From Vairimorpha necatrix (lineage: Eukaryota), in assembly GCA_036630325.1 (NCBI GenBank), contig CP142727.1, forward strand, positions 372,001 through 436,000: a stretch of 64,000 bases of DNA. The letters are read 5' to 3'. The notes below the pieces were generated by a model. The model ran no database searches. It was given only the letters and a program-made list of their open reading frames with translations, and was not told the DNA's origin. The translations under genes and the position numbers were made by a program. Shown piece after piece: positions 1 to 59,958 of this stretch (positions within the stretch are counted from its first letter, which is position 1; every line of letters starts with the position of its first letter).

Positions 1-608
1 AATATTTGTATAATTTTTATACTGGGTTCTCTGGTAAACCAGTTTATAATAATTTTTTCTTAAATTATTATAATGTTTTATTTACTTCCTTGATTCCTGC
101 TACTATTTGTTGCTTTGACAAAGATCTTCCTGAAGATTATTTACTTAGAAATCCCAGGGAATACAAATCGACAACGAGCTTTTTCTGTAAATCCGTGATC
201 TTTCTAGGAATAATTTACGGAATTATTCAAGGTTTGGTAGTTTTCCTTCTTGTACTTGGCGTGTTTTTTATTAAAGATCTTGTCAGAAGAGACGGGAAAG
301 TGGCTGGATATAATGGCATGAATAATCTTATGTCTTTGATTGTATTTTTTAGTGTCTTTCTTGGACAAATAAGGCTGATATCTTTTTATACAATTTATTC
401 TTATGTGGCTATATTCTTGAGCCTGTTATTACTTTTCTTGACTTTATTTGTAATTCAAGATACTTCCTTAGGTGGGAATATGTGGATATTAATGAGTATA
501 CCTTCAGCATATTTTACATTTCTATTTATTATGTTATTTACTTATATATCTGAGTTATGTCTTAGTAAAATATTTTATAAGCTTGTAAATAAAAAAGAAA
601 TAAATTGA
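1..608 (+). CDS. C-terminal part of a P4-type ATPase (phospholipid flippase); 5' end lies outside the window
   Basis: Translation has YNFYTGFSG...YNVLFTSL.P...FDKD.....L...P.EY, the typical C-terminal membrane region of DRS2/DNF-family flippases, followed by several hydrophobic helices. The ORF-track TTG start is an artefact of truncation. Confidence 0.88.
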   Translation, partial: YLYNFYTGFSGKPVYNNFFLNYYNVLFTSLIPATICCFDKDLPEDYLLRNPREYKSTTSFFCKSVIFLGIIYGIIQGLVVFLLVLGVFFIKDLVRRDGKVAGYNGMNNLMSLIVFFSVFLGQIRLISFYTIYSYVAIFLSLLLLFLTLFVIQDTSLGGNMWILMSIPSAYFTFLFIMLFTYISELCLSKIFYKLVNKKEIN

Positions 609-4729: not shown

Positions 4730-5760
4730 TTACTCACTAATTACTCTTCACAAGATACGCTGTCCCTCTTAACATTTCCTGAGTTTCTTATGAAATTTAT
4801 AAATTGCCTCTCGAATTCTCCTTCCTAAACAAAATCAAGCCCAAATCCAATTGACATAGTTTAGCTTTTCTTTTGTCATTTTCAAGGATCTTTGCAAGCT
4901 TTTGTTCTCGTTTCTAATCGGAGCTTTTTATAAGCGCGCGGCACTAATTAGTTACTATTTCGGTCCAAGTCATCACGTAAGAAATAGTTTTCGCATAATT
5001 TTGTAGAGAGAACCCTAGAATTTAAAAGCAAGCCGCATTTATGTTTCTTTTTTGTTTCTACATCATGCATATTGTATAAGCTTGGGATTCCAACCTAGAC
5101 AACGGACATCTTTCCTTAATTCGTCACAATTAGTAGATAAGGCTTGTTATATTTTACTTTGATATTTAACTATCTCGCCGTCAATTTGTATCTCAACATA
5201 CTCGTTAGCTACACATTCCTGGACTGAATGATTTCTAATTCTTTAAGCATGTGATAATCCATTGCTATTACACAACTGCAGGTGTATGCATCGCAGTGCC
5301 TGATTGTGATGTCTCATGAAATCATGTGAAAGCACACGATCACATTGATGGCTATACGATCTAATGTCTTTGTGCATTCGGACAGTGCGGCAATTTATCT
5401 GTTTCTCTAAGAAATATTTCGGCCTGTAATGCAGATAAATTTCCTTCTTCTCTTGAGCTTAAATTTCCTTTATTAAGCCACGTAACAGCCTGTGTATTCA
5501 ATAAGTAAATCGTCTCACAGTCCAAATCGCTTTCATTGGTTAATTTTTGTTTTTATATCGCCATAAAAAGTTTTGATTAGAGCTAATATTTGTATTTTAA
5601 CTTTTATATTTTCATGAAGTTTATATTTCTCTATTATATATCTTTCGATGGTTGATAAACATGGGTGGCCGGTTTTCTCGGAGTAAAAAATCGTTTTGCG
5701 TCTTGTAACAGATTCTTTCGTGCTTCAAATATTTTGATTAATTGTAATAGCTTTTTTTCT
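4730..5760 (-). mobile_element. Degenerate 3' portion of an RLE-type non-LTR retrotransposon
   Basis: Minus-strand fragments across frameshifts: PHCPNA..TLD.IA..CDRVLSHDFMRHHNQALRCIHLQLC (CCHC-type knuckle), NEYVEIQID, V*VGIPSLYNMHDVETKKKHKCGLL, YVMTWTEIVT. Confidence 0.75.
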
Positions 5761-9139: not shown

Positions 9140-11150
9140 AGCATATATTTAATGTCTGGACATAATTATTTATATATAAATTTTTTGTACCCAACTAAGA
9201 CTGTACAACGAGATAAAAACAAAAACCTTACATAAAAGGTTGAACTGAGGAGGCCAAACGAAAACGTACCTGTAAAAGACTCGGCAATAAAAAATAACAC
9301 GAATCATTCTTATAAGGCGGAAAGCTGCCCTCTGTTACTTGAAAGACAGAAAAATATTCTGTGGAACGAGAATGAAATGTCTACATTGTAGAGAAGCTAA
9401 TATTACAGTTGAGCACCTGACGTCTAGATTCAAAAAAATGTCAGGACCAGATTACACGAGAAGAAACAATGATCGGTGCTTCTTTGGTATGCGATCGGAT
9501 ACCAAGACTCCCCTTGTAAAGGAAAAAAACGAAAAAAATATGAAAAAAACGTTAAAAAATACTAGAAATTTGATTTAATTGAGTAAATTATATAATAAAT
9601 CAACATAACAGTCATAAAACTTCTTAAAATTGTCTTCTATACAAAAACCTTTTCTAAATATAAATTCATTGAGCCATGAATCAATTTCCTTACGCTTAAC
9701 TCAATGTTCTTTAGTCATTTCAGATTTTATCTTCAACCATACATTCTCAATGTTATTAGTATGAGTACCATCTTCAGATTTAACCCCGATAGATTGCTTT
9801 ACTTCCTTATGTTCAAGACAAAGATTTTGTGCTATACTAGATAACTCGGATGACCATCACTATGTAAAATCGAACCAACACCTATTTTACCTTCTAGAGT
9901 AACTGTTAAACACTCGACTTTCCTATTATCCACCACTGTAATGTAAAAGTTTATAGGATTAGATGCTTCTACTATACCAAGTGTTCAAACAGTATCAGGG
10001 ATTATATCATCACAACTGGGTGCATTTCTTATTTTACCTCTTCTAAAAATTACAGACTCATCAACTTGGACAATTTTTCCTGGTCCATCAATAATAAGCC
10101 TCTTAGACATTTTGTTTTTACATTTTTCTTTAATTATTTTTTTTTGCATCGAAAACTATCGATGATGAAACTCCTAGTTTTGCCTCTAAGGTTAAATAAA
10201 TACTCCTACACAAAATTAAAAATATTAATTCACAAAAATTATATAAAGGTAACTTTCTTCCTTTGTTAACTGACCTTTTAGCACTGCATTTATAATTAGC
10301 ACACCTGTATAGCACACTTTTAACCTCTCTCTCCTTAAATAATACAACATTTAAAATCTCATTGCATTTAAAGCACGTCTTTTGCTCTTTCAAGACTTAT
10401 AACTCAAGTCGTGAGTTTAAAAAGTCGTTAATACCATAGAAAAGCCTTTGTATTGCCTTTATTTTGATTTTCATGCTTTTCTTTGGTATGCGATCAGAAA
10501 TTTTAAAATCATTATTTTTCATTTTTAGGGGGTCAGAATTTTTTTTAAAAAAAAATTTTATCGCCTACCAAAGAAGCACCAATGATCTATTAAATGCATT
10601 CACCTATTACTGTGCAAAAAATACGATTTTAAATTGAAAAAGAAACTTAAGAGTCATTCTGTACAGAAAGTAGTCTCAAATAAAGACGTCGAAATAAGGG
10701 TAGACACATTCATTGAGACGATATAAAGATTAAACTTAAAAGACCGGTTCTTTTAGTTATAGACAGAAAGTATGAAGAAATGCTCATAATCGAAATCGGA
10801 GTCTCCTTAATCGATAATTTCAAGAGGTGGAAACGCAGAAGCTTAAAAAATATAATATTCTGGTAATGATATGTCTCGATGTATGTCTTTAAATGTAGAT
10901 GTATTTATATGTATTAACATGTGACGACGTGGTTGTCAAATACCAAGGAATGCACTGAAGAAGCCCTGATATACCAACATTTGTCGAAGTAAAAATCAAA
11001 TTTCTTATTTTGAAAAGAACTTGAAAGCATCATGATAGAATATAGAAGATTGGAAAGTCGGAAGTGATGAGGAAAGACAAGTGACGGCAAGTCTAATCAT
11101 CTCTACTACAAAGAGAGACATATATAGACTGAAATTGAGACATAAGAAGA
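9140..11150 (+). mobile_element. Degenerate RLE-type non-LTR retrotransposon 3' fragment, split by a Merlin insertion
   Basis: KCLHCREANITVEHLTSRFKKMSGPDYTRRNND (to 9474) resumes after 10580 as KCIHLLLCKKY..KKLKSHSVQKVVSNKDVEIRVDT..KRP.LLVIDRK..EMLIIEIGV. Confidence 0.8.
9475..10580 (-). mobile_element. Merlin/IS1595-like DNA transposon with inactivated transposase
   Basis: TIRs GGTGCTTCTTTGGTATGCGAT / ATCGCCTACCAAAGAAGCACC and flanking duplication (C)AATGATC. The minus-strand transposase starts at ATG 10522 (CCCCC upstream) and has a CFKC..C..C zinc motif, GPGKIVQVDES, HSDG and HTNNIENVW, interrupted by stops and frameshifts. Confidence 0.88.
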
Positions 11151-11517
11151 AAAGGGTTTTTTTTACAAATTAATGTACGATATTGGTCTAATTTATAAAT
11201 ACATGAAAAAAATTTCATTTTTATGTTATTATGTTATTTTCTATTCGCCTATTGGCCTTTATTTTTATAATTCTTATGCACGACAATATAATCACGAAGA
11301 TATCGAAAATTGATCCTTGGTTTTATATATGTACAAAATGAAAATCGGCCCATTTTTGATGCATTCTTATTGTATCATAACTTTAATGACTACCAATTCC
11401 CCCCTTTTGAACATAACTACAAAGAAAATTATCTTGATTATCGTAAAATTTGAAAGTTTTTGCGTAGTATGGCAAAAAATCAATTTTTAATTTACTTGTT
11501 TTGTCAGATCTCAAACA

Positions 11518-12294
11518 TTTTTTTTCTTTGCAAGAAAAGGGGGAGGGCGAAACCTATATAAAAACTAGAGGGATTGGGCGTGATTCTTATCTAACTGGCA
11601 TTTTGATTCTTACTTAAAAAAACTATATAGAAATATTTTGCTGACGCAGCAAGGTGCGCCTTATTTATTGAACCTTGGCTTCAATAGAACCTTTTTTATT
11701 TATAACTCAAATCGCACCCAGAGTGACCTCACAGCTGAATACACAACGAAGATGGTTATCTATAACACGAGGAGAGAACCATCTGGCAACTCAATGATCC
11801 TCACGTTCATTGTATTCCACAAACGGCCCAGAACTTTGACACATCACCAGTTTGGCATTTTTACTAGGCTGTGTTGACCACCAGTCTCCCACTAGTTTAG
11901 TCCACCGTCCTTCCATTATCTTGTAGGATAGGGTCCGCGAGACCTTCTATTGCTCTTCTTCGTCTAGTCGCTTAGTTATCTCTAGGTATTACTCTAGAGT
12001 GCACAGCCAAAGGCTTCGACTTAGGCCGTCCCCATTAGATACTTCGATGTATGATTAAGTCACCTCAAGAGTAGTACTGCTTTTTTCGGCCTTAAAGTGC
12101 GTTTTCACTAGATGCTAATCCCTTTTAAAAGGACACACACAAATTTCATTGACAATTTAAATATATAATTGTATGCATTTTCATCATCTTAGTTGTCAAC
12201 TAAATCATAGAAAGTAAAAACAATTCTGGTCCTTCTGATTCGACCCCATTATTGCTTAATGTAAGCACAGCTTCTGACTCCGGGTTAAAGGACA
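11518..12294 (-). mobile_element. tRNA-headed SINE-like element, copy 1 (head decayed)
   Basis: Colinear similarity over ~770 bp to 21341-22120, with shared blocks CCAGAGTGACCTCACAGC, GTTGACCACCAGTCT, TGTAGGATAGGGTC, CTTCGTCTAGTC and ACTCTAGAGTGCA. It has a residual B box GGGTCGAATC and a TGCAAAGAAAAAAAA tail. Confidence 0.8.
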
Positions 12295-12314
12295 TTATAA
12301 ACCTAATCGGCGCA

Positions 12315-13240
12315 ACGGCCCGAGCCCGGAATTTTTTTCTCCAAGGGACCTTAAAAAAACGAAAAAAAATAATAAAAGCATTTTATTTTAAAAAAACTTT
12401 GATTACTTCAATCAAAATTCTTTGATTCAAATGATATTTTTATATATTGCGCAACTTCTTCTCCATTCGAATTCCTCCAAAAATCTGGGATACACTTTCT
12501 TTGATCCCTTTCTAGCCATTATATTACATTGTAGATGTGCCCAGGCCCCCTCTATTAAATTTGTAGTCTCTTCTGCATCGTATCTAAAGCCGCCACCATG
12601 GCCACAACGCGATGATCAACGTTATAAATTTAAGGCGCATCGGCGGGGCGGGCTTCTTTTTTCTATAGGGGTTCTACCTTAAGATAAACGAAAAAGAATA
12701 AAAGTAGTATAATTTAAAAACCTTAAAAAGTTTATGTCTATCTTGTCAACTCTTGATTTTTAATAAATTACACGTGTTCTCCAACATTTAAGTTCATCCA
12801 ATAATCAAGATTTTCAAATCCTTTAATCCTGCTTTTAGATATAATAACACAGTTAAGATATGCTTAGACTACTTCTATCAAATTTGTAGTCTCATACGCT
12901 TCGTTTATATAACCTTCATCATAAATTACAGTGAGGATTTGTCTTGTTAAGTTTGTGCACTTTAGATAGAATTTATTTTCTATGTTATACGGCTCTTTCG
13001 TTTTTATGTATATCTAAGAAATTGGGAAATTGTATGTATAGTACGGTTAGGTACTATTTTAATCTTCAATTCTAATGTGGCTCATTTGTTGTCCCTAATA
13101 AACAGTTTATTATGAGTATTTCTTCTATTGGCGACTTTACAAATTCCTCTTTTGCAATTATTTTTTTAACGATTTTTGCCACCTAAATAACCCTCCTATT
13201 ATTTTTGATCTTTGATATAGCCATTTTAGTGGACATAAAA
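12315..13240 (-). mobile_element. Two stacked degenerate Merlin/IS1595 transposase 3' fragments
   Basis: Minus strand gives HGGGFRYDAEETTNLIEGAWAHL...FLEEFEWRR (~12450-12600) and a second IVPNRT...EGYINEAYETTNLIEVV*AYL (~12780-13060). Each is followed by a GC-rich TIR-like end (~12318 and ~12641). Confidence 0.65.
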
Positions 13241-20640: not shown

Positions 20641-21340
20641 CTAAATTAATTAGGTGCATAATCGAGTTAGAAATTAAATTTAGCATTTTTTCTTTAGCGA
20701 ATTTTGACTTTTAAACAAGCAAAAATATCTATATTCGTGAACAAAATCTGTAATTTGTGAAAATGATTGCGGAAATTTAGGTTAAAATTTTATGAAAATA
20801 TTAGTACTAAGTTGTTAATTAATTAAATTTAAGAATAATGTGATTTTTCTGCATAATTCTAAACGTTTTCGTAACATTTCTCATCATGTAATATAAGTAT
20901 TAATGACAAAATGTATATGAAACAATTCCGCCATATTATGATACTAGCAACAATAGAGAAATGTTGTCAAGTACAAAGAGTTACTTGTAAAATTCAGGTT
21001 CTTATATCATAAAATTATAAAAAATGTTCTATATTCCTTTTTTGACTTATATTTATTTGATTTTGACAACAATATAGTTACAGTATATATACCGTAGATA
21101 GTTTAAAATCATATTGCAAATAATATTTTTCATATTCTAATTACAATTTATTATGTGTGTACCATGCGTTGCAATAGTCTTAGATTTGTTTTATTTGTAA
21201 AAACACGATATTAACAAAGTGAAAACATAATAGATTATTTTTAATTCGTTGTATAGCTAACGTATTTTTGAATCTTTAAAAAATGCATTGTAGACAAAAT
21301 TAATTATTTATTTCTTTTGTTGATGCCGTATCCATCAAAT

Positions 21341-22120
21341 TTTTTTGTTGCAAGTATGAGGTAGGGAAAAACCTTACTTAGGGACCAAAGGGATTTGGGC
21401 GTGATCCTCATCCAACTGGTACTGTGAGATTCTTACTCACTAAAACTTCCTCCATACAACTTGCCGGTGCAACAAGCTCCGCCGTATCCATTGGACTTTA
21501 GCTCCAGGAGAACACTTTCCATTTATACCTCAAATCGCGTCCAGAGTGACCTCACAGCGGATATACTTTACGAGCATGGTTATCTATAACCCGAGGAGAG
21601 ACATCATAGTACAGACTCAAAGGTCCCTACAATCATCTGTATTGCACACACGGATCCTTACACGATCACATCACCAGCCCGGCGTTTTTTGGGTTGAGTT
21701 GACCACCAGTCTTTCACTAGTTTCGGTCACCGTGTTACAGAATCATGTAGGATAGGGTCAACGAGACTTTCTATTGCCCTACTTCGTCTAGTCTCTTAGT
21801 TAGCTCTAGGATCCCACTCTAGAGTGCATCAGTCATGGGCTCCAACTAGGCCGTACCCATCATACACTTTTATGTATCACTTAGTCAACAAGGGTGATAA
21901 TTTGTTGGCCTTAAGGTACGTTTCTACACTAAATGCCAATCCCCTTGTGGCTGGACACACACAGGTTTCATTGAAATAACTTAATGATTATTTTGGACAT
22001 TTATATCGTCTAAGTTGTTCCAACTGCATCATAGAAGGAGAGACAATTTTGGTGCGTCTGGGAATCGAACCCAGCCATTGCTCAATGAGCATCGCATTCT
22101 ACCACTGAGCTAAGGGCACC
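21341..22120 (-). mobile_element. tRNA-derived SINE-like element, copy 2 (best preserved, 780 bp)
   Basis: 5' head GGTGCCCTTAGCTCAGTGGTAGAATG...CTGGGTTCGATTCCCAGACGCACCA carries A box, B box and T-arm. 3' tail is TGCAACAAAAAAA. Flanking 15-bp near-duplication CCGTATCCATCAAAT (21326-21340) / CCGTATCGACCAAAT (22122-22136). Confidence 0.85.
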
Positions 22121-24738
22121 TCCGTATCGACCAAATATGGGATCTAAAAAATTTACTAATTCAAAATAAGTTTTTATGTGGTATTGCTTGTTATCAAGTA
22201 TGAGATAATATATAAAACATTTGCTATGAATATTAAGAAAATATAAAATTGTGATATTCTGCGCGTCAAATTTTTACTTGACATTTTGCTACACACAAAC
22301 AAAAAAACAAACTAAATTAAAAAGTTTATATCCAGGAGCATGGTATATAAAACAGATAACATTTTTAGAAATTTTTTTTTATTTAGTGTATTTTAATTTA
22401 ATGCACGTAAAAATAGAATAAACAGTTTTCTTTAATACTTAATTCGGGTTAAACATAGATATTTGCGAGTTATTTTGTATGGTCACAAAGATTAGCTTTA
22501 TATTTAGTATTTAAAACTATTTATTTCGAATGTTTTTAAAATTTATAACATCATTATGGGGGTGTTTTGTGAAATTGTCTAAAAGCATGTATTTTTTTTT
22601 CTTACTTAATTAGAAAACATACATATATTCGGATCTATTTTCTTAGGAGACAAGGCCCTCATAACAACAATATTGGATTTTTATTTAATGTTCTTAGACA
22701 TAGATCTGCAATTTTAATCTAGCAGAATTTCCATGAGTTTACTCAGCAATTTCAAACATCGGGAAGTCTTTTTTGGGTCTATTTGATGTCTTAGATTGTT
22801 CTAGAGTAGTAAGAAAGTACAACAATTTTAGCTCAGTATGATGAATTTTCAAAGCAATAAAAAAATTTTAGGTGCCATTTGATGATTTCCCCAAGTATAT
22901 CAATTTAAACCCTAACCAGGGTGAAAACCGTAGCAATCCGACAAAGTTTTCTTTTTAAATAGAATTTTAAAATATCATACGGATATATAACCAACCTTAA
23001 AATAAGTCAAAAAAAAAGAGTACGGTGTTGTGAAATACTACTCGTTGTAATTTTAGGTAAAATAAAACAAGAGAAAATAGATCTTAACCTGATCAAGATA
23101 TTATTATATGGCATACTGGTATTTACGGCAGTATTGAGATTATAGAAAGAAAATTTTTCAAAGACATGAGAAAAGAAATATAATACTGATATTAGACGAG
23201 GAGCTATTTAAGACTAGTAATATATCTAGAAATATGATAAGTATATCTTAAGTACTCCGATCTTTCATCTAAAGAATACAATAAATAATTAAAAGATATA
23301 TTACCATAAGATTCCAAAAGTGTATGACCGTAAGACAATTATAAATCTCAATATTAACAAATAATAGCCATTTACTTTACTTTCATTGATGTTAATAATA
23401 TCAACTTCAACAAACATTATTTTAACAAAAAAATTTAAGCTACTTAAGTAATTGCATTGCATAAAAATTTATCTTTATGCTTATATGTATTCACTTACGA
23501 AATTGAACAAATTTTATAAGTTTATCATAAGAAACGACATATGCATTCTTGCAGGTCACTGGATGCTTAAATGTTTTTTTATAAAATCCGCTTTAAAATT
23601 AAATTAAATAAGGTTATAGAATTAATTACCAACTATTATTTCTTCTTTTCTAAGCTACCCTCACTTTATCGGGCATCTACCCTTGATTTTATTAAATTTT
23701 CTATGCGGACATCAAATGGTCTTTCTGCGGGCAAAAGGCATGTCCGCTTGTCTTGTTATAGCTTTGCCGGTAATGTTGGGGATCATTGTTTATATACGCT
23801 ATCTTACAACAAAATCAAGCTTTTTTGTTTTACGAGATACAAGTAAGTAACAATATCATTGTAAATCACCTCTTGAGAATTCGAGGTTATGTTATCTCGG
23901 ATTGCATAATAGTCTTAAATCCAAGGAAAATATTATTCTTTTAATATCATCTCTTCTTTTCTTACACATTTTGTTAAAATTACTTTTAATGTTTACGAAT
24001 ACAAATCCTCAAATTAAAAGCACGTATATAGTCCCATTCAGCAATGATTTTTAGTTAAAAGCCGAATAATTCGCTTTTGGGTACATACTACTTAAATTTT
24101 TATTTATATGTTTCTCAGAGTGTTTTGGAGAAATCACAAGTCTATATCTAATCAACGAATTGCCAAAACTGACAAAATATTTGTTTTAAAATTAAAGAAT
24201 TTACTAAAAATTTCAATTGTAGACGAAACATGATAAAATGCAGGATTAGCTATAATTTTTTTGTTCGGGACAAGTGTTATCAATGTCATAACAAAAGTCA
24301 ATATTAAAAAATTAAATATAATAACGAGTGTCAAGATCAATAAAATTAGTGTAACATTTACATTAATTATTACGTGTAATGTAATTAATAACAATCATTT
24401 AAGACAAATATGGCAAATTGGAGCTGATAATGTGTTTATTTTGAAATTGAAGAGATTAATATGTCTTATAGAAACATAAATATTTGAAAATTTAAATTTG
24501 TCTAATGTCTAGAAAGTATTTGTGTATTTTGTGTTTTCGACATATGCAAATATTTTTCTATAGTTTTTTACGAAAAATTAAAAAAGACAATAATTTTCTT
24601 TACATTCACATTGGTTTTTCTTTTGTTACCATAAAAATAATAAAACTAATTATGCAATGACTTATTTATTAAAAACGACAATTATATAATCTAAAGAAAC
24701 CTACATAATTTTTTATACAATTAAAAAAAAAGATCCCT

Positions 24739-32803: not shown

Positions 32804-35536
32804 CTAAAGATAGAACTCCTCCTTTTTGATTTTACGTAGTTGAGTAATATGCCTTTTACTAACTTTACCTTTAAGATTAATCAGATACGTATCGTTATTC
32901 AATATACCTACAACTTCGCCCATAGCGGAAAATTTAGGCTGTCCTTTATATTTATGAATATGATCTTCTATCAGAACAAAATCGCGTAGCTCTAGTTTTA
33001 GATAATTAGGGTTCTTAAACATTTTTTTGTATTTTTTAATTCTATTTTCGAAATATTTATTCTTTAGTAATTCTAAATTTTCTGTGTTTAAAGCCTCTTT
33101 GGGTGTCATGTTTGTAGCCGAATGGCAGATACTATTATAACTATCAAGTACATTGTCAACTCGTTTTGACAATCTTATTGTTTTTTCTTGTTTGTTTACC
33201 CCTTCACCCATAGTTCTATTAAATCGTTCAATTCTACCATTTGAACAATGATGATATGGTGAAGTTACATGATAGACAATCCCGTTTTCAATCATCCAAT
33301 TTTTTATATATTCACTGTTGTTTTCTTTTGCAGCGTCAGAGACAAATGTCTTCACTTTGAACTTCTTATGTACTATTTCTAAAAACATTAATAAGTTGAG
33401 ACTGGTTTTATTCTTAAATACTTTGGCTATTGCATATCTTGAAAAATAATCTATTGCTGTAAAAATATATGAACCTTTTATTGGTCCTATAATGTCAAAG
33501 GCTACCTTTTGCCCCGGTTCAAAAGCTTCGATGAATCTATAACCCGTTATTCGTACCGGATTGTATTCTTTACACTTAAAACATTCTTTAACGATTCCTT
33601 TAACTTCTGTTAATTTAATGTTTTTCTCAGGTTCATTTTCACATAAATATTCGTAAGTTGCTTTAGCTCCTCTATGTACCAGCTTTTCATGAGCTTGTAC
33701 TAAACTCTCTTTATTGTCAGTTACGCTGATATTGTTTATTTCTTTATGTTGGCGAGATAAAGCATCGACATGTGCCAATTCCGTAGGTTTTTTGTATTTA
33801 ATTTCAAAGTCATACATTTGGATCCTTTCTATCCATCTAATTATTCGTGATGACTTAATTTCTCCTTTTAAGTTGAGGGCTTCTAACGCTCTGTGGTCTG
33901 TAAAAATTATAAATCTTCTACCAAGTAACCAATATTTAAAATGCTCCATTGCCCATAATGAAGCCAACATTTCTTTCTCCGTGATCGTATAATTTAATTC
34001 TGCATCTCTCAGTTGCCTGGATGCAAATGCTATGGGTCGTTCTATTCCATCACAAATTTGGCTGAGTATTGCACCAAGTCCCGTGTTGGACGCATCAGTC
34101 GTTAAAATAAAGTTAGAAGCTAGATCGGGTTGATATAAGCATAGTTCTGAAGTTAATATTTTCTTAAGCGTATTAAATGCCTGTTCTTGACTTTCTCCCC
34201 ATTCAAACTGTCGATTTTTCTTTAACAAAAGCACTAAGGGGTTACAGATATCAGCACAATTCTTAATAAATTTTCTATAATAATTAATGACTCCTAAAAA
34301 TTTTCTTACGTCGTCTGCACTCTTGGGTGTTTTGTACATATTAATTCCTTCTGTTTTATCTATTATTGGTCTAATTTTATTTTGTGAAATTTTATGACCT
34401 AAAAACTCAACTTCTTCTTTTAAAATTGTGATTTTCTCTTTATTTGCAGAAAATCCTGCTCTATTAAGCAGACGGCAAACTTTAGCCAAAGCTTTGTAAT
34501 GCTCTTCAATAGTTTCGGAGTAAATCAAAACATCATCAACATATGCAAAACATGTTCTCCCAATTCCCTCATTCAAGACTTTATCAATTACTCTTTGAAA
34601 CATTGCCGGAGAGTTTTTAAATCCCATTGGCATACGGACATATTCATATGTTTTATCTTTTATTCGAAAAGCCGTTTTCTCTCTGTCCGCTTCACGTAGT
34701 TTGACCTGAAAAAATGCTTCTTTAAGATCTATTTTCGAAAAGTATTTGCTTTTGCCTAAGCAATAAATATATTCCTCTATCCTAAGCAGGGTATAACTAT
34801 CTAGCTCAACAATATTGTTGAGTTTAATTAAATTTATGGTCAATCCAGCGCTGCCATCTTTCTTTTCAACGGGCCTCACATTATTTAACCATGTTGATTT
34901 GGACTCTCTAATGTAATTATTATGCAATAATCTTTTTATTTCCACTTCTACTTTCTTCTCCCAAGCCTGTGGAATTCTATAAGTTCTTTCGACAACCTTT
35001 TTTCCTTTTTCTGTGTCAATTCTACATTCAAACCCTTTTATTCCTTCTGGTTTCCATGTGCATAGATTGTCAATTTCGTCTTTATAGTTACAAATCTTTG
35101 GTTCTTCAATGTTCTGACCCCCATGGGACATCCATTGTCTTCCTATAATAACTGTTAAATCTGTTCTTTTTGGTAATATAAAAAATTTTTCTCTGAAAGT
35201 GTTTTCCTTATAGCTAAAAACTATCCATACATATTCTGTAATTTTAAATTCTTCTAGTAAACAAGTATACAGGCTGATAGGCTGCTTAAGTTTATATCTC
35301 TTCTCTTGAATTTTATTTACAATATTATTTGTAACAAAACTATACTCAGAACCAGTATCAAATACAGTTCGTAATTTAAAATTTTTTATAAAAATATAAT
35401 TGTCTTTGGTTATTTCCTCAATTTTTTCAATATTATTGATGTTCTTATTTATTTTTCCTTCTCTTGAAGATGACTTTTGGATTTTTCTATAAGTAGCTTC
35501 TTTAATTACTACTTCTAATCTTTTAATTATTTCCAA
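32804..35536 (-). CDS. pol: Ty3/Gypsy Pol polyprotein (protease, RT, RNase H, integrase)
   Basis: FDTGS (PR), MPMGFKNSP and YVDDVLI (RT), TDAS..GLGAILSQ and TDHRAL (RH), H..H..C..C, SD..KE and SNGRIERFNRT (IN). No ATG start; the frame is continuous with the upstream gag across one TAG. Confidence 0.93.
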   Translation of the reverse strand: MEIIKRLEVVIKEATYRKIQKSSSREGKINKNINNIEKIEEITKDNYIFIKNFKLRTVFDTGSEYSFVTNNIVNKIQEKRYKLKQPISLYTCLLEEFKITEYVWIVFSYKENTFREKFFILPKRTDLTVIIGRQWMSHGGQNIEEPKICNYKDEIDNLCTWKPEGIKGFECRIDTEKGKKVVERTYRIPQAWEKKVEVEIKRLLHNNYIRESKSTWLNNVRPVEKKDGSAGLTINLIKLNNIVELDSYTLLRIEEYIYCLGKSKYFSKIDLKEAFFQVKLREADREKTAFRIKDKTYEYVRMPMGFKNSPAMFQRVIDKVLNEGIGRTCFAYVDDVLIYSETIEEHYKALAKVCRLLNRAGFSANKEKITILKEEVEFLGHKISQNKIRPIIDKTEGINMYKTPKSADDVRKFLGVINYYRKFIKNCADICNPLVLLLKKNRQFEWGESQEQAFNTLKKILTSELCLYQPDLASNFILTTDASNTGLGAILSQICDGIERPIAFASRQLRDAELNYTITEKEMLASLWAMEHFKYWLLGRRFIIFTDHRALEALNLKGEIKSSRIIRWIERIQMYDFEIKYKKPTELAHVDALSRQHKEINNISVTDNKESLVQAHEKLVHRGAKATYEYLCENEPEKNIKLTEVKGIVKECFKCKEYNPVRITGYRFIEAFEPGQKVAFDIIGPIKGSYIFTAIDYFSRYAIAKVFKNKTSLNLLMFLEIVHKKFKVKTFVSDAAKENNSEYIKNWMIENGIVYHVTSPYHHCSNGRIERFNRTMGEGVNKQEKTIRLSKRVDNVLDSYNSICHSATNMTPKEALNTENLELLKNKYFENRIKKYKKMFKNPNYLKLELRDFVLIEDHIHKYKGQPKFSAMGEVVGILNNDTYLINLKGKVSKRHITQLRKIKKEEFYL

Positions 35537-35560
35537 AAATTCATCATTTATGACCGAAAA

Positions 35561-36647: not shown

Positions 36648-37269
36648 AATTGGGGTTTAATATAATAACTAATATAACATTCTATATTTTTTTTGTTGTT
36701 TGTATCATGACAAAAATGAATAATTTCACTACGTATTAACCGAGCATTGTTAATGTTTAAATCGTCAATTTTAAGGGCTATCTTTAATCTTGCCAAATAA
36801 TAAGACTTCAGACGTATCGTATTAGCTAAGAGTAATTAAAGATTATTTTAAAAATGAAGAAGCTCTTCAATTTTTTAATACTGATAATTAATCGACCTGA
36901 CTAAAAAAATACAATATTTCTATCTTTTAATTCTAATTAAAAAACAAATAAAATGATTGGGAAAAAAATTACAACCCACCCTATGCCTCTATTTTTGAAA
37001 AATCGAAAAAATGCAAAATCGATTTTTTGGATATTATAAATTAAAGTTACTATAGTAAATTAATATTTACAAAAGAAATAGTCGACAGCCCATTTGGTAA
37101 GATTTAAAACTAAATTAATATTGATAGTATAACTCTTAAAAAAAAGTATTCCAGGCAAAAAAAAAACAATAATGCTCGTATTTTTTCTCGAAACGAATAT
37201 AAAGAATAGTTACTTTGGATACAATATCCGACTATTGGTAAATTAAAAATTATATTAGTAAAAATTAAA

Positions 37270-38000
37270 ATGTTTATTTAGCTCAATGGTAGATAGCAGA
37301 TTGTCATTAAGCATGGATAAATTTAAACTTTGGGGAAAAAATGTTTCTTTTTTTAGGATGCAGTCAGAACGATTCAACTATTGTAATAACTACGGTAATA
37401 TTGAAATGATTCGAATGATCTTGCGTCGTTTAGATATAAAAAGATTCGAATCGAGTTGAAAACGCATCATATCCTTGTGATGACTTATTATAAATAGAAA
37501 TATCTGCTAGGTATGGCTGTTACACAGTAAAGTGGGATATTAGAGCATATAAGAGACTGGATATAGTGGAACAATAGAAGGCTTTGTAACCATATGCTAA
37601 AAAATTCTAAAACACGGTGCGCGAAAACTAGTAGAAAAATATAGGTAGGCGCAGCCTATCAAAAGCCGAGCTGATGGCATGGCACTGTAAGGTGCCTTAT
37701 ACGCATAAAGATGATTGTGAGAACTTTCTAGCTTGTAAGACGTTGTCTCTCGGGGCATCAAATAATTTCATTTTAATATATTCACTATGAGTTACTCTAG
37801 GCAGTTTCATGATAGTGATGAGCAATTGTTATTTTAGTCCAAGGTACCAATGGATACGGTAAAGCTTGATGCAAATGCAATTCATATGCAGGAAATTTTC
37901 GTAAGTAATAACCTTACAGTATCAGTTATAAAAGGTAATCTAAATTCCCTCTGCCGCCTATGTAAGATTTCTTTCTTCCTCTACATGCAATGAGAAAAAA
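37270..38000 (+). mobile_element. tRNA-headed SINE-like element, copy 3 (old, diverged)
   Basis: Starts with A box TTAGCTCAATGGTAGA. Colinear blocks AGTGGGATATTAGAGC..TAAGAGACT, AACACGGTG, AGATGATTGT, CCAATGGATACGG and ACAGTATCAGTT match the reverse complement of copy 2. Ends TGCAATGAGAAAAAA. Confidence 0.72.
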
Positions 38001-38536
38001 TTTCTTGCTATTCTTAAGTGTTTTCGATCGTATAACTAATATGTTACAAACTAGCGGTTCAACTTATATGCCGTGTCAATGCCTACTAGGATTATCTGAG
38101 GATAGTCTATATATCTATTTTTCTTATTTCTATAATATTGGTAAACATAAATTTATGAAATGGCGTAATTATTATTTTTGTTCACTATACAAAAAACTTT
38201 GTAATGAATCATATATTGATTTAGTATTATATAAAGAAACCAAAATTCAGAATGAGAATGTCTCTAATAGGAATATTAAATTACTACACAGAGAAAATTA
38301 TATCGGGCTGAAGAAAGACGATTTTTTTTTCATCAAAATATCGTATTTTTGCAAAAACCCCTATTTTATAACTTATTTAAATAAATAATTAATTATGTTT
38401 AAAACAAGTAATGAAAAAAATCTTTTTCTCAATAAATTTGATTAGTTTGGTTGTAATTTTTTAACTATTATAATCAGATAATTATTGTTTATGTCAATTT
38501 TACTATTGTAATATATTGTTATTAAAAACAAACCCC

Positions 38537-39487
38537 ATGTTTTTATTTCATTCTTTATTAATCACTTCAAGTCTGGTTTTAGAAACAAGTGAACATTCTG
38601 TAGTGATACAATTTAATCAACAGATGAATAAAATCGAAGACATTGATATTATGACAATTTTAGCAGAGGAGCATAGCGGATTGCCGCAGGAAGATTATAT
38701 TGATCCTACAATGGAAGAACTTTTTGAACATTTAATAAGCGGAGGCAGTTTAAATGATCTTTATGACATAAAGTCCCAAGATACGCTTCAACATATTTAC
38801 AATGCCGTAATTGAAAATCCTTCAAGTATAATAAACTGTATTATAACATTAGAAAATCAACTAAATCAAATGAAGTATAAATTATATCAAATCAAAGAAG
38901 AGTCTAAATCTCGTTATGTTCAAATGCCAAATTTAATTCACGAACATGAATTCGGCAATGACGAAATAACAAAGCTTATGGAATACCGAACTCAATTACG
39001 GCGATTTTTTTTAAAGTATGAAAAATCTTTGTTTGAATACTCTGAATATATAAAAGAAAAATACATCAAAATTCCCATTATATACAATGAAGTTGTAGTT
39101 TCAACTTTCAATTTTTTTATTGATGTTTGTGATTTTATAATACCTATAAATTCCCATTTATCAGTACGTTATAATACAATGATTTTACTGAATAAATTTT
39201 TATTGGATCATTGGAAAATACAAGAAGTGTTGAATACTATTTATTTACCAAACCTTATTGAAGCCATTATAATATATTGTAAGAGTATGATAACTTACAG
39301 TGGTAAAGATCAAAAAGAATTTAATAAACACTTGAAAACTTTATTAAATAATTTTAAAAACTTTTATGACGAAAAAGATGATATGTGCATTCGATTATAT
39401 GAACCATGTCGGCTAATGTATATGAATCATATGTCGATGAAAGAAAATATTTTCAGTAGTAACTTATTTTATAGAATACTTAAGTAA
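38537..39487 (+). CDS. Secreted protein, family A, divergent subgroup (316 aa)
   Basis: CCCC-ATG at 38537 (not TTG 38516), signal MFLFHSLLITS, motifs DIMTILAEEH, DFIIP and LDHWK. Confidence 0.85.
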   Translation: MFLFHSLLITSSLVLETSEHSVVIQFNQQMNKIEDIDIMTILAEEHSGLPQEDYIDPTMEELFEHLISGGSLNDLYDIKSQDTLQHIYNAVIENPSSIINCIITLENQLNQMKYKLYQIKEESKSRYVQMPNLIHEHEFGNDEITKLMEYRTQLRRFFLKYEKSLFEYSEYIKEKYIKIPIIYNEVVVSTFNFFIDVCDFIIPINSHLSVRYNTMILLNKFLLDHWKIQEVLNTIYLPNLIEAIIIYCKSMITYSGKDQKEFNKHLKTLLNNFKNFYDEKDDMCIRLYEPCRLMYMNHMSMKENIFSSNLFYRILK

Positions 39488-42229: not shown

Positions 42230-43147
42230 TTACATTAAGATATTGAATTTAGCATATGTTTTCTTAATTATTTCACATATTTCATTTAAACGTTTACAAA
42301 ATTGATTTTTTTCCTCAATAAAATTAACGAAAGAACGTCTCAAATTATCAACATTTTCGACTATTTGCCACTTCTCATTGTCTCTTATTTTCAATGCATT
42401 TTTACAAAAATAAATTATTTCATCAATCAGAGACATCATACATATATTGTTCGTCACTGTATGTATTTTCCAAATGTCTCGAGAACACGTATCTAGCAAA
42501 TTTCGTGAATAATAGCGTAATGATAAATTGGTTTTCTTAAATATTATGAAATTGGCAACATCTTTCATGAAATTAAGAGAAATAATTATCTTTGCTGTGT
42601 CGTCGGATTTAATTAAAGAAAGAGTATTTATAATGTGTTCGATATAATTAGAAAGTGCACATTCATATATTAATGAACATCGTCTTAAATAATTTCTATT
42701 CCTTTTGATTGTTTTCATATCAAAATCTGAAAAAATAATTGTTTCGAATTTAAATTGTTTTAGTGTAAAAATTGTTTCGTATTCATTTTTAATCTGATTA
42801 AATTTATCATTCATTAGGTTAAGTAAGTTATCCAATGACACGAAACTATATATCTCAGTTACCTTGTTATTGATTTTACAATCATAGATATGTTGATGTG
42901 TACTTGCATATGTGTCCACTTTATAATATTCCAATTTTCCCCCGCTTAATAAATACTCGAATAAATCTTCGGTAGTATGATCACTATAATCTATATGTGT
43001 CAAGTCGTTACCTCCTTCTGCTAAAATTGTCATAATATCAAGATCTTCGTAATTATTTATCTTATGATCATAATGAAACAGCATAGAAATTTCATTAGAT
43101 TCGAAATGAGGACTAGAACATATTAACAAAGAAATAAATAAATACAT
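42230..43147 (-). CDS. Secreted protein, family A, divergent subgroup (305 aa)
   Basis: CCCT-ATG at 43147, signal MYLFISLLICS, motifs DIMTILAE, EDLFEYLLSGG (shared with 38537) and DIWK. Confidence 0.85.
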   Translation of the reverse strand: MYLFISLLICSSPHFESNEISMLFHYDHKINNYEDLDIMTILAEGGNDLTHIDYSDHTTEDLFEYLLSGGKLEYYKVDTYASTHQHIYDCKINNKVTEIYSFVSLDNLLNLMNDKFNQIKNEYETIFTLKQFKFETIIFSDFDMKTIKRNRNYLRRCSLIYECALSNYIEHIINTLSLIKSDDTAKIIISLNFMKDVANFIIFKKTNLSLRYYSRNLLDTCSRDIWKIHTVTNNICMMSLIDEIIYFCKNALKIRDNEKWQIVENVDNLRRSFVNFIEEKNQFCKRLNEICEIIKKTYAKFNILM

Positions 43148-43863
43148 AGGGCTATTATTTTTTAGTCTCATTTATCACTGATTAATTTAGAAATTATATT
43201 CAAAAATAACTGTTAATGTTTGTAAAAAGGCCAAATAAAAAAATATAATTTATTTGTTCGTGTTAGAATTATGAATTTGGACAATTTATCTATATGACGT
43301 GTATTTTCGGGACTAAATTGAAATATTAGGGGGTTTCGGAATTTTTATCTATAGTATTCGCTTCAAAGCTCGGTTTCTTGATTTTCTCAACGTCATTTTA
43401 CTCTCTTGTCAAAAATAAATTTCAATTAAGTATGTCGTCTTCTACCATTACTATTTTTCGATAATATTGTTGTCAAGCATTTTTTAAAAAAATATTTGGC
43501 TTTTGTTAACATGTTAACGTAGTGTACAGATTAAACAACTAAAGACTCGTATCTGTACTTGTTATTGTGTGTTGTATCATCCGCGGACGAATTTTTTAGA
43601 TAGGCTTATTTCGAATCTGCTGCTGTACAAAATTCAAAATACAGCAATTTTAGTCAATTAGTTTCTTATACGAATATTCTAGCCAAAACATCTCATAGAT
43701 ACATGTATATTTATACGTATCCGACATTTACAGTTATTTATTGCGCGCACACTATAGAGGTTCGATTAAAATACAAACAAAAGCACAAATACAAACTTTT
43801 CGAAAAAATGACTTTAGAAGGCTAACAAATAGTTGGGATGTTTGGCTTTTTTTTCTTTGTTGG

Positions 43864-45897: not shown

Positions 45898-46384
45898 GTT
45901 GGAATGTATAAAAACTTGTTTAGAGGATTTCTAAAAGAACTCAAGTATAAATACCATAAGAAGTAATTGTATGCATTATCAATAAGAAAAAGGAGAATTA
46001 TAAACCGGAAAAATTTAAACCTTATAATAATAACCTAATTTTCGAAAACTAACACATCCCGATTTTTACAACACATTTGATCGCAGCATTCTTTAAATAA
46101 GTATAAATCTAATCTTACTAATTTTTTATTTGACCATAATATTAAACTTGTAAATACTTTTTACGACAGATATTAATTCTACAAGAAGATTGTCATCGTT
46201 TTAAATGATCTTTACATAAAAACACAAATAAGTACCAGCCATATATATGTTAATAAAACTTTTGCAATATTGTTCGTAAGAATAATGAACAAGAATACCG
46301 GCCATCAGATGTTTTTTATGTATTTTTAGCTTCTTTTTTAAAATAAATATAAATATATCTATTTATTAATAAATTTTATTCGAA

Positions 46385-47100
46385 AAGACACAACGAGGGA
46401 ATAAGTGCATTCATCTCTTACATGTATTAAATATGGGGTTTAGAAGACAAAAAATACGTGGACACTAAGTACAAGAGATCATGGGAAACGATCGTGCGGA
46501 AATAAGAGTAGATACAGGATATCCCTTGATATAAAGGTGAATCATAATAAGCCTATATTCTTGTGTTTGACAAGAAAAAAAGGGAAATTTTTTAGTCGAA
46601 GTTGGTATAGCCAACCAGGACCGACTTCATAGTGGAAAATGAAAAACTAAAAAAAATAAGCTTCTTGAAAATGAACTGGGACTAATCATAAATCCCGGAA
46701 AGAATAGTTCCTTATGTAATGACATGAGATGGAATGGTGAGCAAATTTCATAGAAAGTCATCGGTGCTGAAACCCCCAACCTTAACTTGAAGCATGCATC
46801 CAGTCTATTGTGTTAAAGACGGTCTAGAGTCCATCTATTTGGAATGACGAGGAGGATACGATCAAAAAGGTGCAGGAGAGGAAGATGTGGCTAAGCTGTG
46901 GGCGCACTAGAAATATGGCGACCGATGAAGAAGTGGTGTCGTTGAATGAGTATGAAGCTGAATCCGAGGTTGAAAACGGAAAAAATTTCACAGAAACCAA
47001 AGTCCGTGAAGATCCAAATCCCATGAGCGATACCGGGGAAAGCTGTGCTATAAATATTAAAAATAATGATAAATTACCCCAATAAATCTTTGCATAATGT
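46385..47100 (+). mobile_element. 5'-truncated degenerate RLE-type non-LTR retrotransposon
   Basis: HNEG.KCIHL, VQEIMGNDRAEIRVDT, VEVGIANQD, NELGL, IVPYVMT*DGMV. Nucleotide-similar to 59470-59950 through the 3' UTR ...AATAAATCTTT. Confidence 0.85.
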
Positions 47101-59467: not shown

Positions 59468-59958
59468 TAGCAAATGAACTGGGACTAATACATAGCAAAT
59501 GAACTGGGACTAATACATAGCAAATGAACTGGGACTAATACATAAATCCCAGACAAGAATAGTTCCTTATGTAATGACATGGGATGGAGTGGTGACCAAA
59601 TATCACAGAAAGTACATCAGGGAGCTAGAAATCAACCCTACCTGGAAGCATATATCCAGTCTATTGTGATGAAGAAGACTCTAGAGTCCATCTCTTTGGA
59701 ACGACGACGAGGATACGATCAGGAGGATGCAGGAGAAGAAGAAGTGGCTAGAGCTGTAAGCGCACTAGCGAATATGGTGACTGTTAAAGAAGTGGTGTCG
59801 GCAAAGGGGAATGAAGCTGCTAAAGTGAAGTTGGAAAACATTAATAATTCCACAGAAACCAAAGTCTGTGAAAAGCTGAATCTTATGAGCGATACCGGGG
59901 AAAGCTGTGCTATGAACATCTAATCTTAATGATAAATTAACTCAATAAATCTTTTATA
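59468..59958 (+). mobile_element. Short 5'-truncated RLE-type non-LTR insertion with triplicated 5' junction
   Basis: LANELGLIH...IVPYVMTWDGVVTKYH, EAYIQSIVMKKTLESISLERRRG. A 25-bp unit is repeated three times at 59468-59542. Flanking TTTTTAGCTTATCTA / TTTTTAGCGTATCTA duplication. Confidence 0.85.

What the first reader, a model, noticed from the sequence alone, without database searches (positions are those of the whole stretch)
21341..22120. Long (~780 bp) tRNA-headed, structured SINE-like family in a microsporidian
Seen: a tRNA-like head with A/B boxes, an intact T-arm and an encoded CCA, but a remodelled anticodon arm (TGCTC-ATT-GAGCA around CAT). A ~700-nt non-coding, GC-richer body follows with many hairpins (ATGGG..CCCAT, CTCTAG..CTAGAG, TAGGG..CCCTA, GACC..CTAGT/ACTGG..GGTC, GGTTAT/ATAACC). 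There is no T4 run on the sense strand until the last ~100 nt despite the AT-rich genome, and it has an A-tail and a 15-bp TSD. Three full-length copies of different ages occur in 64 kb. Established: Pol III head, TSD and tail define SINEs, which are usually shorter. Inference: an abundant Pol III retroposon, perhaps mobilised by the RLE-type non-LTR elements here (a similar ~15-bp TSD flanks the 59.5-kb copy), whose large conserved body may be a functional structured RNA. Several RTGATG/CTGA-like boxes raise a tRNA-snoRNA-like origin as an alternative.
Basis: partly seen in the sequence, partly recalled or inferred. Interest (0 to 1): 0.8.

Follow-up and report, generated by a model that had tools for sequence, protein, structure and literature searches.

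The report
Long tRNA-headed SINE in a microsporidian
This is a real, roughly 780-base, non-coding jumping element with a decayed tRNA at its front end, present in many copies in a Nosema/Vairimorpha-type parasite genome; it is an ordinary kind of element (a SINE) in a group where none has been described in detail.

Summary
The element is real and lies on the minus strand (head at 22120, tail at 21341). The window holds three full-length copies of different ages: 780, 776 and 729 nt, 58-73% identical, with shared 5' and 3' ends. In a public run of a close relative, contigs pile up only over 21367-22142. They leave the window sequence exactly at 21340 and 22121.

The head is a degenerate tRNA with perfect A and B boxes in copy 1. 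The relative's majority letters restore a perfect 7-bp acceptor stem. Copy 1 has a 13/15 target-site duplication and a short A run.

The body is non-coding: stops in all frames, no codon periodicity, no Pfam or protein relatives.

Not supported:
- The "encoded CCA": its two Cs belong to the acceptor stem.
- The lack of T4 runs: 25% of dinucleotide shuffles do as well.
- A structured body: fold z -1.09, covariation equal to column-shuffled controls.
- A snoRNA origin.

There are four decayed 3' fragments, one with a 14/15 TSD, but no 3' tail shared with the SINE, so the partnership is only inferred.

Verdict: a new tRNA-derived SINE family, long but with fungal precedents of 700-900 bp.

The parts
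21341..22120 (-). SINE copy 1 (780 nt), the youngest of the three; GC 44.6% against about 25% around it
   Evidence: contigs of run X1 leave the window sequence at 21340 and 22121
22048..22120 (-). tRNA-derived head (element positions 1-73). A box at 22102-22112, B box at 22061-22071, intact T arm, anticodon arm shortened by 2 nt
   Evidence: X1 majority letters at 22056 and 22057 restore a perfect acceptor stem. The 1-120 window folds with z -2.72
21347..22047 (-). tRNA-unrelated, non-coding body of about 700 nt
   Evidence: stops in all six frames and no codon periodicity; no Pfam hit; no protein relatives of the 103-aa antisense frame; no Rfam family; no LINE-protein similarity
21341..21346 (-). 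short A run at the 3' end (6 A, 7 if 21340 is counted)
22122..22136 (-). 5' copy of the target-site duplication of copy 1
   Evidence: 13 of 15 positions match; null frequency 0.75%
21326..21340 (-). 3' copy of the target-site duplication of copy 1
11521..12296 (-). SINE copy 2 (776 nt), 72.5% identical to copy 1, GC 39.6%, head decayed, no detectable TSD
37269..37997 (+). SINE copy 3 (729 nt), 63.6% identical to copy 1, GC 34.7%, head decayed, no detectable TSD
59470..59954 (+). 5'-truncated 3' end of an RLE-type non-LTR retrotransposon. It has a 14/15 TSD, ends ...CAATAAATCTTT without an A run, and carries three tandem 25-nt units at its 5' junction. Candidate source of the SINE's machinery
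46379..47091 (+). longer 5'-truncated copy of the same LINE family (82% identical over 46669-47091); reaches into the endonuclease domain
4950..5703 (-). decayed fragment of an RLE-type LINE (endonuclease-domain region)
9201..11021 (+). two decayed pieces (9201-9482 and 10571-11021) of RLE-type LINE C-terminal coding sequence, next to SINE copy 2

Best explanation
This is a family of tRNA-derived SINEs (non-autonomous, non-coding retroposons) in a Nosema/Vairimorpha-clade microsporidian.

Proposed working:
1. [quoted passage not shown]
2. The RNA is copied into new chromosomal sites by the reverse transcriptase and endonuclease of a resident non-LTR retrotransposon (target-primed reverse transcription). 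This leaves a short A-rich 3' end and a TSD of about 15 bp.
3. Inserted copies are dead on arrival and decay towards the AT-rich composition of the genome.

Shown: the tRNA-like head with promoter boxes; common boundaries in independent copies; one TSD; the non-coding nature; high copy number in a relative; GC falling with copy age.

Inferred: Pol III transcription; LINE-mediated mobilisation; the identity of the partner. The RLE-type LINE whose fragments lie in the window and make TSDs of similar length is the best candidate.
For: - Three full-length copies with the same 5' and 3' ends and no other fragments in the window.
- In run X1, single-copy flanks lie at 0-5 summed depth and one flank piece is about 96% identical. 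Summed contig depth over 21367-22142 is 98-529. 184 contigs were laid, of which 20 were 99% or more alike, 29 were 95-99%, 47 were 90-95% and 88 were below 90%.
- Loose ends lie at 21340 (3 contigs) and 22121 (4 contigs), and the flanks there disagree with each other (agreement about 0.6).
- Perfect A and B boxes in copy 1 only.
- The X1 majority carries G>C at 22056 and T>C at 22057. This makes the acceptor stem GGTGCCC/GGGCACC perfect.
- ARAGORN draws a cloverleaf for the head at a relaxed threshold, and the head window folds with z -2.72.
- TSD of 13/15, null frequency 0.75%.
- Non-coding: 7 or more stops in every frame; substitutions 70/68/72 by codon position; no Pfam hit; no protein relative.
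- GC is 44.6, 39.6 and 34.7% in order of divergence.
- RLE-type LINE fragments are present at four places. One has a 14/15 TSD of similar length.
Against: - Only 1 of 3 copies has a detectable TSD.
- The A run is only 6-8 nt.
- No RNA data: no run on record as RNA was listed, so transcription and the polymerase are untested.
- A T4 or longer run sits at about position 676 in all three copies, and a T5 at 750 in copy 1. Either could stop Pol III before the 3' end.
- 780 nt is long for a Pol III product and exceeds the 100-600 bp usually given for SINEs (PMC5063351, Introduction).
- No 3' tail or any other block is shared with the LINE fragments in the window.
- The whole genome was not available, and pattern scans of public collections found no further copies. 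Copy number therefore rests on one run of contigs whose depths are not a true copy count.
Confidence: 0.85

Rival explanations
1. A retroposon whose tRNA-like head is a relic rather than the working promoter. It would be transcribed by Pol II or by read-through from neighbouring promoters, like some long fungal 'SINE-like' elements, and still be copied by a LINE reverse transcriptase.
For: - Length of 780 nt, with T4 or longer runs before the 3' end in all three copies.
- The T4-free stretch is not beyond chance.
- Fungal elements of 700-900 bp called SINEs exist (PMC5063351, Introduction).
Against: - Perfect A and B boxes at canonical spacing in the youngest copy.
- The relative's majority sequence has an even better tRNA acceptor stem. 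This points to masters that keep the head intact.
- Copies begin exactly at tRNA position 1.
Confidence: 0.08
2. A solo LTR of a non-autonomous LTR retrotransposon that carries a tRNA-like sequence in its LTR (Helenus/TRIMp3 type), mobilised by the Ty3/gypsy elements present in the window.
For: - A Ty3/gypsy pol gene is in the window at 32807-35560.
- tRNA-like sequences inside LTRs are known in fungi (PMC10886601, abstract).
Against: - The copies are solitary and at least 9 kb apart.
- The TSD is about 15 bp, not 4-5 bp.
- The ends are GG...AAAAAA, not TG...CA.
- The tRNA part sits at the extreme 5' end.
Confidence: 0.03
3. A family of functional structured non-coding RNA genes (a tRNA-snoRNA-like or other large RNA) that spread by duplication.
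For: - Local hairpins are present.
- TGATG occurs 5 times in copy 1; only 67 of 20000 shuffles reach that count.
- The element is richer in GC than its surroundings.
Against: - Whole-element fold z is -1.09 on the sense strand and -0.59 on the antisense strand.
- Body windows give z -1.96 to +0.93.
- The RNAalifold covariation term is -0.08.
- Against 30 column-shuffled alignments, the energy z is -1.27, and there are 33 compensatory pairs against 29.3 +/- 5.1.
- No Rfam family is matched.
- Copy 1 has no RTGATGA, and the TGATG positions are not conserved.
- The copies decay freely, down to 58% identity.
Confidence: 0.03

Closest known systems
tRNA-derived fungal SINEs (MgSINE of Magnaporthe, AfuSINE2 of Aspergillus fumigatus, SINE2-1_BG of Blumeria)
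   Same: A tRNA-like 5' head with A and B boxes, a tRNA-unrelated non-coding body, TSDs, and dispersed copies. AfuSINE2 and MgSINE are as described in PMC5063351 (abstract and Introduction).
Long fungal 'SINEs' mgsr1 (800 bp), Egr1 (700 bp) and egh1/EGH24 (900 bp)
   Same: Length class and non-autonomous retroposon nature (PMC5063351, Introduction).
   Different: Whether those carry a tRNA head was not checked here. They come from ascomycetes, not microsporidia.
'SINE' category in the Nosema bombycis repeat table (0.18% of the genome) and 'LINE Dong-R4' (1.04%)
   Same: Same clade of microsporidia. An RLE-type LINE clade and some SINE-classified repeats are reported (PMC3614468, Table 2 passage).
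   Different: That is only an automated category without any description. Whether it is the same family could not be tested, because no N. bombycis DNA was at hand.
Helenus (TRIMp3): non-autonomous LTR retrotransposons with a tRNA-like sequence in the LTR
   Same: A tRNA-like Pol III promoter carried by a non-autonomous retroelement; found in fungi (PMC10886601, abstract).
   Different: Helenus has two LTRs, a PBS/PPT and 4-5 bp TSDs. This element is solitary, carries its head at the 5' end, ends in A's and has a TSD of about 15 bp.

Membership tests
SINE (tRNA-derived) | 5' head derived from a tRNA, with internal Pol III A and B boxes | tested here: met
   A box at position 9 and B box at 50 in copy 1. 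Rfam tRNA alignment is weak, 16.1 bits. ARAGORN draws a cloverleaf at a relaxed threshold. The acceptor stem is perfect in the X1 majority.
SINE (tRNA-derived) | Non-coding and non-autonomous | tested here: met
   Stops in all frames and no periodicity. No Pfam hit. No relatives of the 103-aa antisense frame. No LINE-protein similarity.
SINE (tRNA-derived) | Many dispersed copies with the same 5' and 3' boundaries | tested here: met
   3 of 3 window copies are full length. X1 contigs pile up over the element only and diverge at 21340 and 22121.
SINE (tRNA-derived) | Target-site duplications flanking the copies | tested here: inconclusive
   1 of 3 copies has a 13/15 TSD with null frequency 0.75%. 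The two old copies have none. No further copies with flanks could be fetched.
SINE (tRNA-derived) | A-rich or simple-repeat 3' end, or a tail shared with a partner LINE | tested here: inconclusive
   A6-8 in 3 of 3 copies. No tail is shared with the LINE fragments in the window. Full-length LINEs were not available.
SINE (tRNA-derived) | Usual length of 100-600 bp | tested here: not met
   Copies are 729-780 nt. Fungal precedents of 700-900 bp exist (PMC5063351, Introduction), so length is a habit rather than a strict criterion.
SINE (tRNA-derived) | Transcription by RNA polymerase III and mobilisation by a LINE reverse transcriptase | not testable with these tools
   No run on record as RNA was listed.
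Functional tRNA gene | Cloverleaf that passes tRNA detectors, with a 7-nt anticodon loop | tested here: not met
   ARAGORN finds 0 genes in the window at default settings. Rfam tRNA scores 16.1 bits against a gathering score of 29. The anticodon loop lacks 2 nt in copy 1.
Helenus/TRIMp3 LTR element | Two LTRs around a PBS/PPT, with 4-5 bp TSDs | tested here: not met
   Copies are solitary and at least 9 kb apart. The TSD is about 15 bp.
C/D box snoRNA | RUGAUGA and CUGA boxes brought together by a terminal stem | tested here: not met
   Copy 1 has no RTGATGA and one CTGA. The only snoRNA match is snoR66 at E 3.8, 16 bits against a gathering score of 43.
RLE-type non-LTR retrotransposon (for the fragments at 4.9, 9-11, 46.4 and 59.5 kb) | Central reverse transcriptase, C-terminal restriction-like (PD-(D/E)XK) endonuclease, no N-terminal AP endonuclease | tested here: met
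   The frame at 59546-59920 matches a Vairimorpha necatrix 'reverse transcriptase' (E 4e-30). P0124 aligns to the C-terminal end of 943-1310-aa proteins. 8 of 8 of those scanned have a central RVT_1 and no other domain at E 0.001 or better, apart from one marginal below-cut-off Anticodon_2 hit. There is only a weak nuclease-family hit, HSDR_N_2 at E 0.025. The PD...E.K motif was read by eye. The window fragments themselves lack the RT part.

The most novel reading that the evidence does not exclude
This may be the first SINE family of Microsporidia to be characterised, and it may be driven by an RLE-type (R4/Dong-like) LINE with which it shares no 3' tail. Such LINEs are usually site-specific and are rarely linked to SINEs. 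Its GC content (45% in a 25% GC genome) leaves open a recent arrival by horizontal transfer, for example from a host.
Probability: 0.25. Interest if true: 0.5.

Novelty: new member of a known kind. Interest (0 to 1): 0.35.

Why it matters
- Microsporidian genomes range from extremely compact to repeat-rich, and their repeat surveys treat SINEs at most as an automated category.
- A defined, abundant tRNA-headed SINE gives a concrete family for annotating the large 'unknown repeat' fraction of Nosema/Vairimorpha genomes.
- It offers insertion markers for strain and species typing of these insect parasites.
- It would let one ask whether RLE-type LINEs can mobilise SINEs.
- It also warns annotators that tRNA-like hits in these genomes can be SINE heads.

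Tried and rejected
- Whole genome: none is held for this window, so no genome-wide census was possible.
- Earlier notes of this scan: nothing by place, sequence or words.
- Public runs: only one holder (X1, share 0.11) was listed, and no holder on record as RNA. X2 and X3, from the same study, gave only short unlike pieces.
- Pattern scans: 0 matches for two conserved motifs in metagenome contigs and for one of them in genome contigs.
- Rfam: no family at gathering score in the window. At E up to 10 there were only chance-level hits: mascRNA 17.2 bits, tRNA 16.1, snoR66 16.0.
- Coding body: rejected.
- Structured body: rejected for lack of signal. The shuffle control looked strong (0 of 500), but the structure had been derived from the same alignment. 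The column-shuffle control removes that effect.
- Terminator avoidance: rejected as not significant.
- Shared SINE/LINE tail: not found. The best block was 39 nt at 74% in an AT-rich internal stretch, E 0.005 under lax scoring, taken as chance.
Open frames of 55 aa or more showed no non-LTR RT. The LINE fragments appeared only by tblastn with fetched relatives.
- PDB sequence search with the LINE C-terminal domain: 0 hits.
- Literature searches found no paper in the held library that describes a microsporidian SINE family. Repbase and Dfam could not be searched. Supplementary files of the TE surveys were not opened and may list such a family.

Full report
WHERE AND WHAT

The window is AT-rich (about 20-34% GC per kb). 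It encodes a eukaryotic ribosomal protein L5 that is 82% identical to that of Vairimorpha apis and 72% to that of Nosema bombycis. It also holds a P-type ATPase fragment, a Ty3/gypsy pol gene and a Merlin-type (IS1595-like) transposase. No whole genome is held for it.

THE ELEMENT AND ITS COPIES

Read on the minus strand, 22120 down to 21341 is a 780-nt unit. BLASTN and an nhmmer profile find exactly three copies in the 64 kb and no fragments:
- 21341-22120 (-)
- 11521-12296 (-)
- 37269-37997 (+)

All three are full length (780, 776 and 729 nt). They begin at the same tRNA-like position and end in CTTGCAA, 2-3 further bases and 6-8 A. Pairwise identities are 72.5, 63.6 and 57.9%. GC falls from 44.6 to 39.6 to 34.7%. 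This fits copies of different ages decaying towards the genome's composition.

INDEPENDENT COPIES IN A RELATIVE

One public run (X1, Logan contigs) held part of the stretch. I laid it at 80% likeness or more.
- The flanks have summed depth 0-5, and one flank piece of 246 nt has 9 differences.
- The bins from 21367 to 22142 have summed depth 98-529.
- 184 contigs were laid: 20 at 99% or more, 29 at 95-99%, 47 at 90-95% and 88 below 90%.
- Individual element contigs have depths of 2.7-4.9, like the flank contig (3.3). The pile therefore reflects many distinct copies, roughly of the order of a hundred at this likeness. Summed contig depth is not a true copy number.
- Contigs leave the window sequence at 21340 (3 contigs) and at 22121 (4 contigs). 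The sequences beyond disagree with each other (agreement 0.62 and 0.58). This is what different insertion sites with the same element ends would give.
- Two other runs of the same study showed nothing on the element.

THE HEAD

- Copy 1 has a perfect A box (TRGCNNAGTGG, position 9) and a perfect B box (GGTTCGANTCC, position 50). The latter is the only match in the window.
- It has an intact T arm.
- Rfam's tRNA model aligns over 22051-22119 at only 16.1 bits (E 3.5, gathering score 29).
- ARAGORN calls nothing at default settings but draws a cloverleaf for positions 1-71 at 80% threshold.
- Relative to copies 2 and 3, copy 1 lacks 2 nt in the anticodon loop. The older copies carry a 7-nt loop centred on CAT. 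The parent tRNA cannot be named without the genome's tRNA set.
- In X1 the majority letters at 22056 (G>C, depth 109 of 124) and 22057 (T>C, 120 of 124) turn the 3' acceptor strand into GGGCACC. This pairs perfectly with GGTGCCC at positions 1-7. The family's source copies thus have a better tRNA head than the window copy.
- The head window (1-120) is the only part that folds better than shuffles (z -2.72, 1 of 100).

ENDS AND TARGET SITES

- Copy 1 is flanked by ATTTGGTCGATACGG and ATTTGATGGATACGG, 13 of 15 positions matching. With the same search freedom, 0.75% of 2000 random flank pairs from the window score as well.
- Copies 2 and 3 show no TSD, as expected for copies 27-42% diverged.
- The 3' flanks of copies 1 and 2 are weakly alike (local score 17, single-test p about 0.003, 20 comparisons made). 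I leave this open.

THE BODY

- Every frame of every copy has 7 or more stops.
- Substitutions between copies 1 and 2 fall 70/68/72 on the three codon positions, and 26/26/26 inside the longest (antisense, 103 aa) frame.
- That frame has no Pfam hit and no relative among 5.8 billion proteins.
- tblastn with 28 LINE proteins finds nothing in the SINE copies.
- No Rfam family matches.
Body windows of 120 nt give z from -1.96 to +0.93.
- RNAalifold on the three copies has a covariation term of -0.08.
- The pair-shuffle control looked favourable, but the structure was chosen on the same alignment. Against 30 column-shuffled alignments, each refolded, the energy z is -1.27 (3 of 30 as good). Compensatory pairs number 33 against 29.3 +/- 5.1 (4 of 30 as many).
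- Three decaying copies are a weak data set, so this is absence of evidence. Nothing supports a functional structured RNA.
- The first T4 on the sense strand is at 676, as stated. However, 6.8% of mononucleotide shuffles and 25% of dinucleotide shuffles do as well. A T4 or longer run at about 676 is present in all three copies.
- TGATG is over-represented in copy 1 (5 occurrences; 67 of 20000 shuffles reach this). None is a canonical RTGATGA, there is one CTGA, and the positions are not conserved.

THE LINE

- No open frame of 55 aa or more has a non-LTR RT domain.
- A second repeat lies at 59522-59954 and 46669-47091, 82% identical. It carries a frame that matches a 'reverse transcriptase' of Vairimorpha necatrix (66% identity, E 4e-30).
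- A longer relative (P0124) aligns to the C-terminal 160-200 residues of proteins of 943-1310 aa.
- 8 of 8 such proteins scanned have one central RVT_1 domain and no AP-endonuclease, RNase H or integrase.
- The domain gives a weak hit to a PD-(D/E)XK nuclease family (HSDR_N_2, E 0.025) and shows an RPD...EVG...K pattern by eye. This is the architecture of RLE-type non-LTR elements. That clade (Dong-R4) is listed for N. bombycis (PMC3614468, Table 2 passage).
- tblastn shows four decayed 3' fragments in the window: 4950-5703 (-), 9201-9482 with 10571-11021 (+), 46379-47091 (+) and 59470-59954 (+). Their 5' truncation points differ.
- The 59.5-kb fragment has a 14/15 TSD, TTTTTAGC(T/G)TATCTA, scoring above the 99.9th percentile of the null. 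It ends ...CAATAAATCTTT without an A run.
- The SINE and LINE share no tail or other block. The partnership rests only on co-occurrence and similar TSD length.

COMPARISON WITH WHAT IS KNOWN

- SINEs are usually given as 100-600 bp. Fungal elements called SINEs reach 700-900 bp (Egr1, mgsr1, egh1), and MgSINE is a 472-bp tRNA-derived one (PMC5063351, abstract and Introduction read).
- Helenus elements carry tRNA-like sequences in LTRs but have paired LTRs, a PBS/PPT and 4-5 bp TSDs (PMC10886601, abstract read). That does not fit here.
- For microsporidia I found only automated categories:
  - 'SINE 0.18%' in N. bombycis (PMC3614468, passages).
  - No occurrence of the word in two TE surveys (PMC4202319 and PMC7313128, term search of the text) or in the V. 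necatrix genome paper (PMC10759460, term search).
  - Zero SINEs in Microsporidia sp. MB (PMC11585130, passages).
- Searches found no description of a microsporidian SINE family in the held library. Subscription journals, Repbase, Dfam and supplementary files were not seen.

VERDICT

This is a genuine, abundant, tRNA-derived SINE family: long, but with fungal precedents in length, and new as a described family for microsporidia. The LINE partner is plausible but unproven.

Noticed in passing
window 43864-44195 and 45566-45897: Two 100% identical direct repeats of about 330 nt, 1702 nt apart. They flank and overlap a 470-aa minus-strand frame (44265-45677) that has no Pfam hit. This looks like a very recent tandem duplication or an LTR-like pair.
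   Followed up: no
window 59470-59544: The 5' junction of the truncated LINE copy carries three tandem 25-nt units (at 59470, 59495 and 59520) of the sequence at which the copy begins. This may be a trace of template switching at the end of reverse transcription.
   Followed up: partly
window 21281-21340 and 11461-11520 (3' flanks of SINE copies 1 and 2): The 60-nt 3' flanks of copies 1 and 2 are more alike than random window segments (local score 17; single-test p about 0.003 among 20 comparisons). This could be chance, a target preference or a short 3' transduction.
   Followed up: partly
window 56784-56968 and 57851-58035: 185-nt inverted repeats, 90% complementary, bracket the Merlin/IS1595-type transposase frame (57000-57899). 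This looks like a fairly intact DNA transposon.
   Followed up: no
window 38524-38745 and 42939-43160: 222-nt inverted repeat arms (71% complementary), 4.2 kb apart. They overlap the 5' parts of two divergently oriented frames of about 315 aa (38537-39487 + and 42230-43171 -) that have no Pfam hit. This may be an inverted gene duplication.
   Followed up: no
window 12292-12922: Two tandem units of about 300 nt, 66% identical, lie directly upstream of the head of SINE copy 2 in a GC-richer stretch. Their nature is unknown.
   Followed up: no
run X1 laid on window 21401: Four contigs of the relative leave the SINE at 21401, which is element position 720. This hints at a subfamily with a different last 60 nt, or at rearranged copies.
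   Followed up: no
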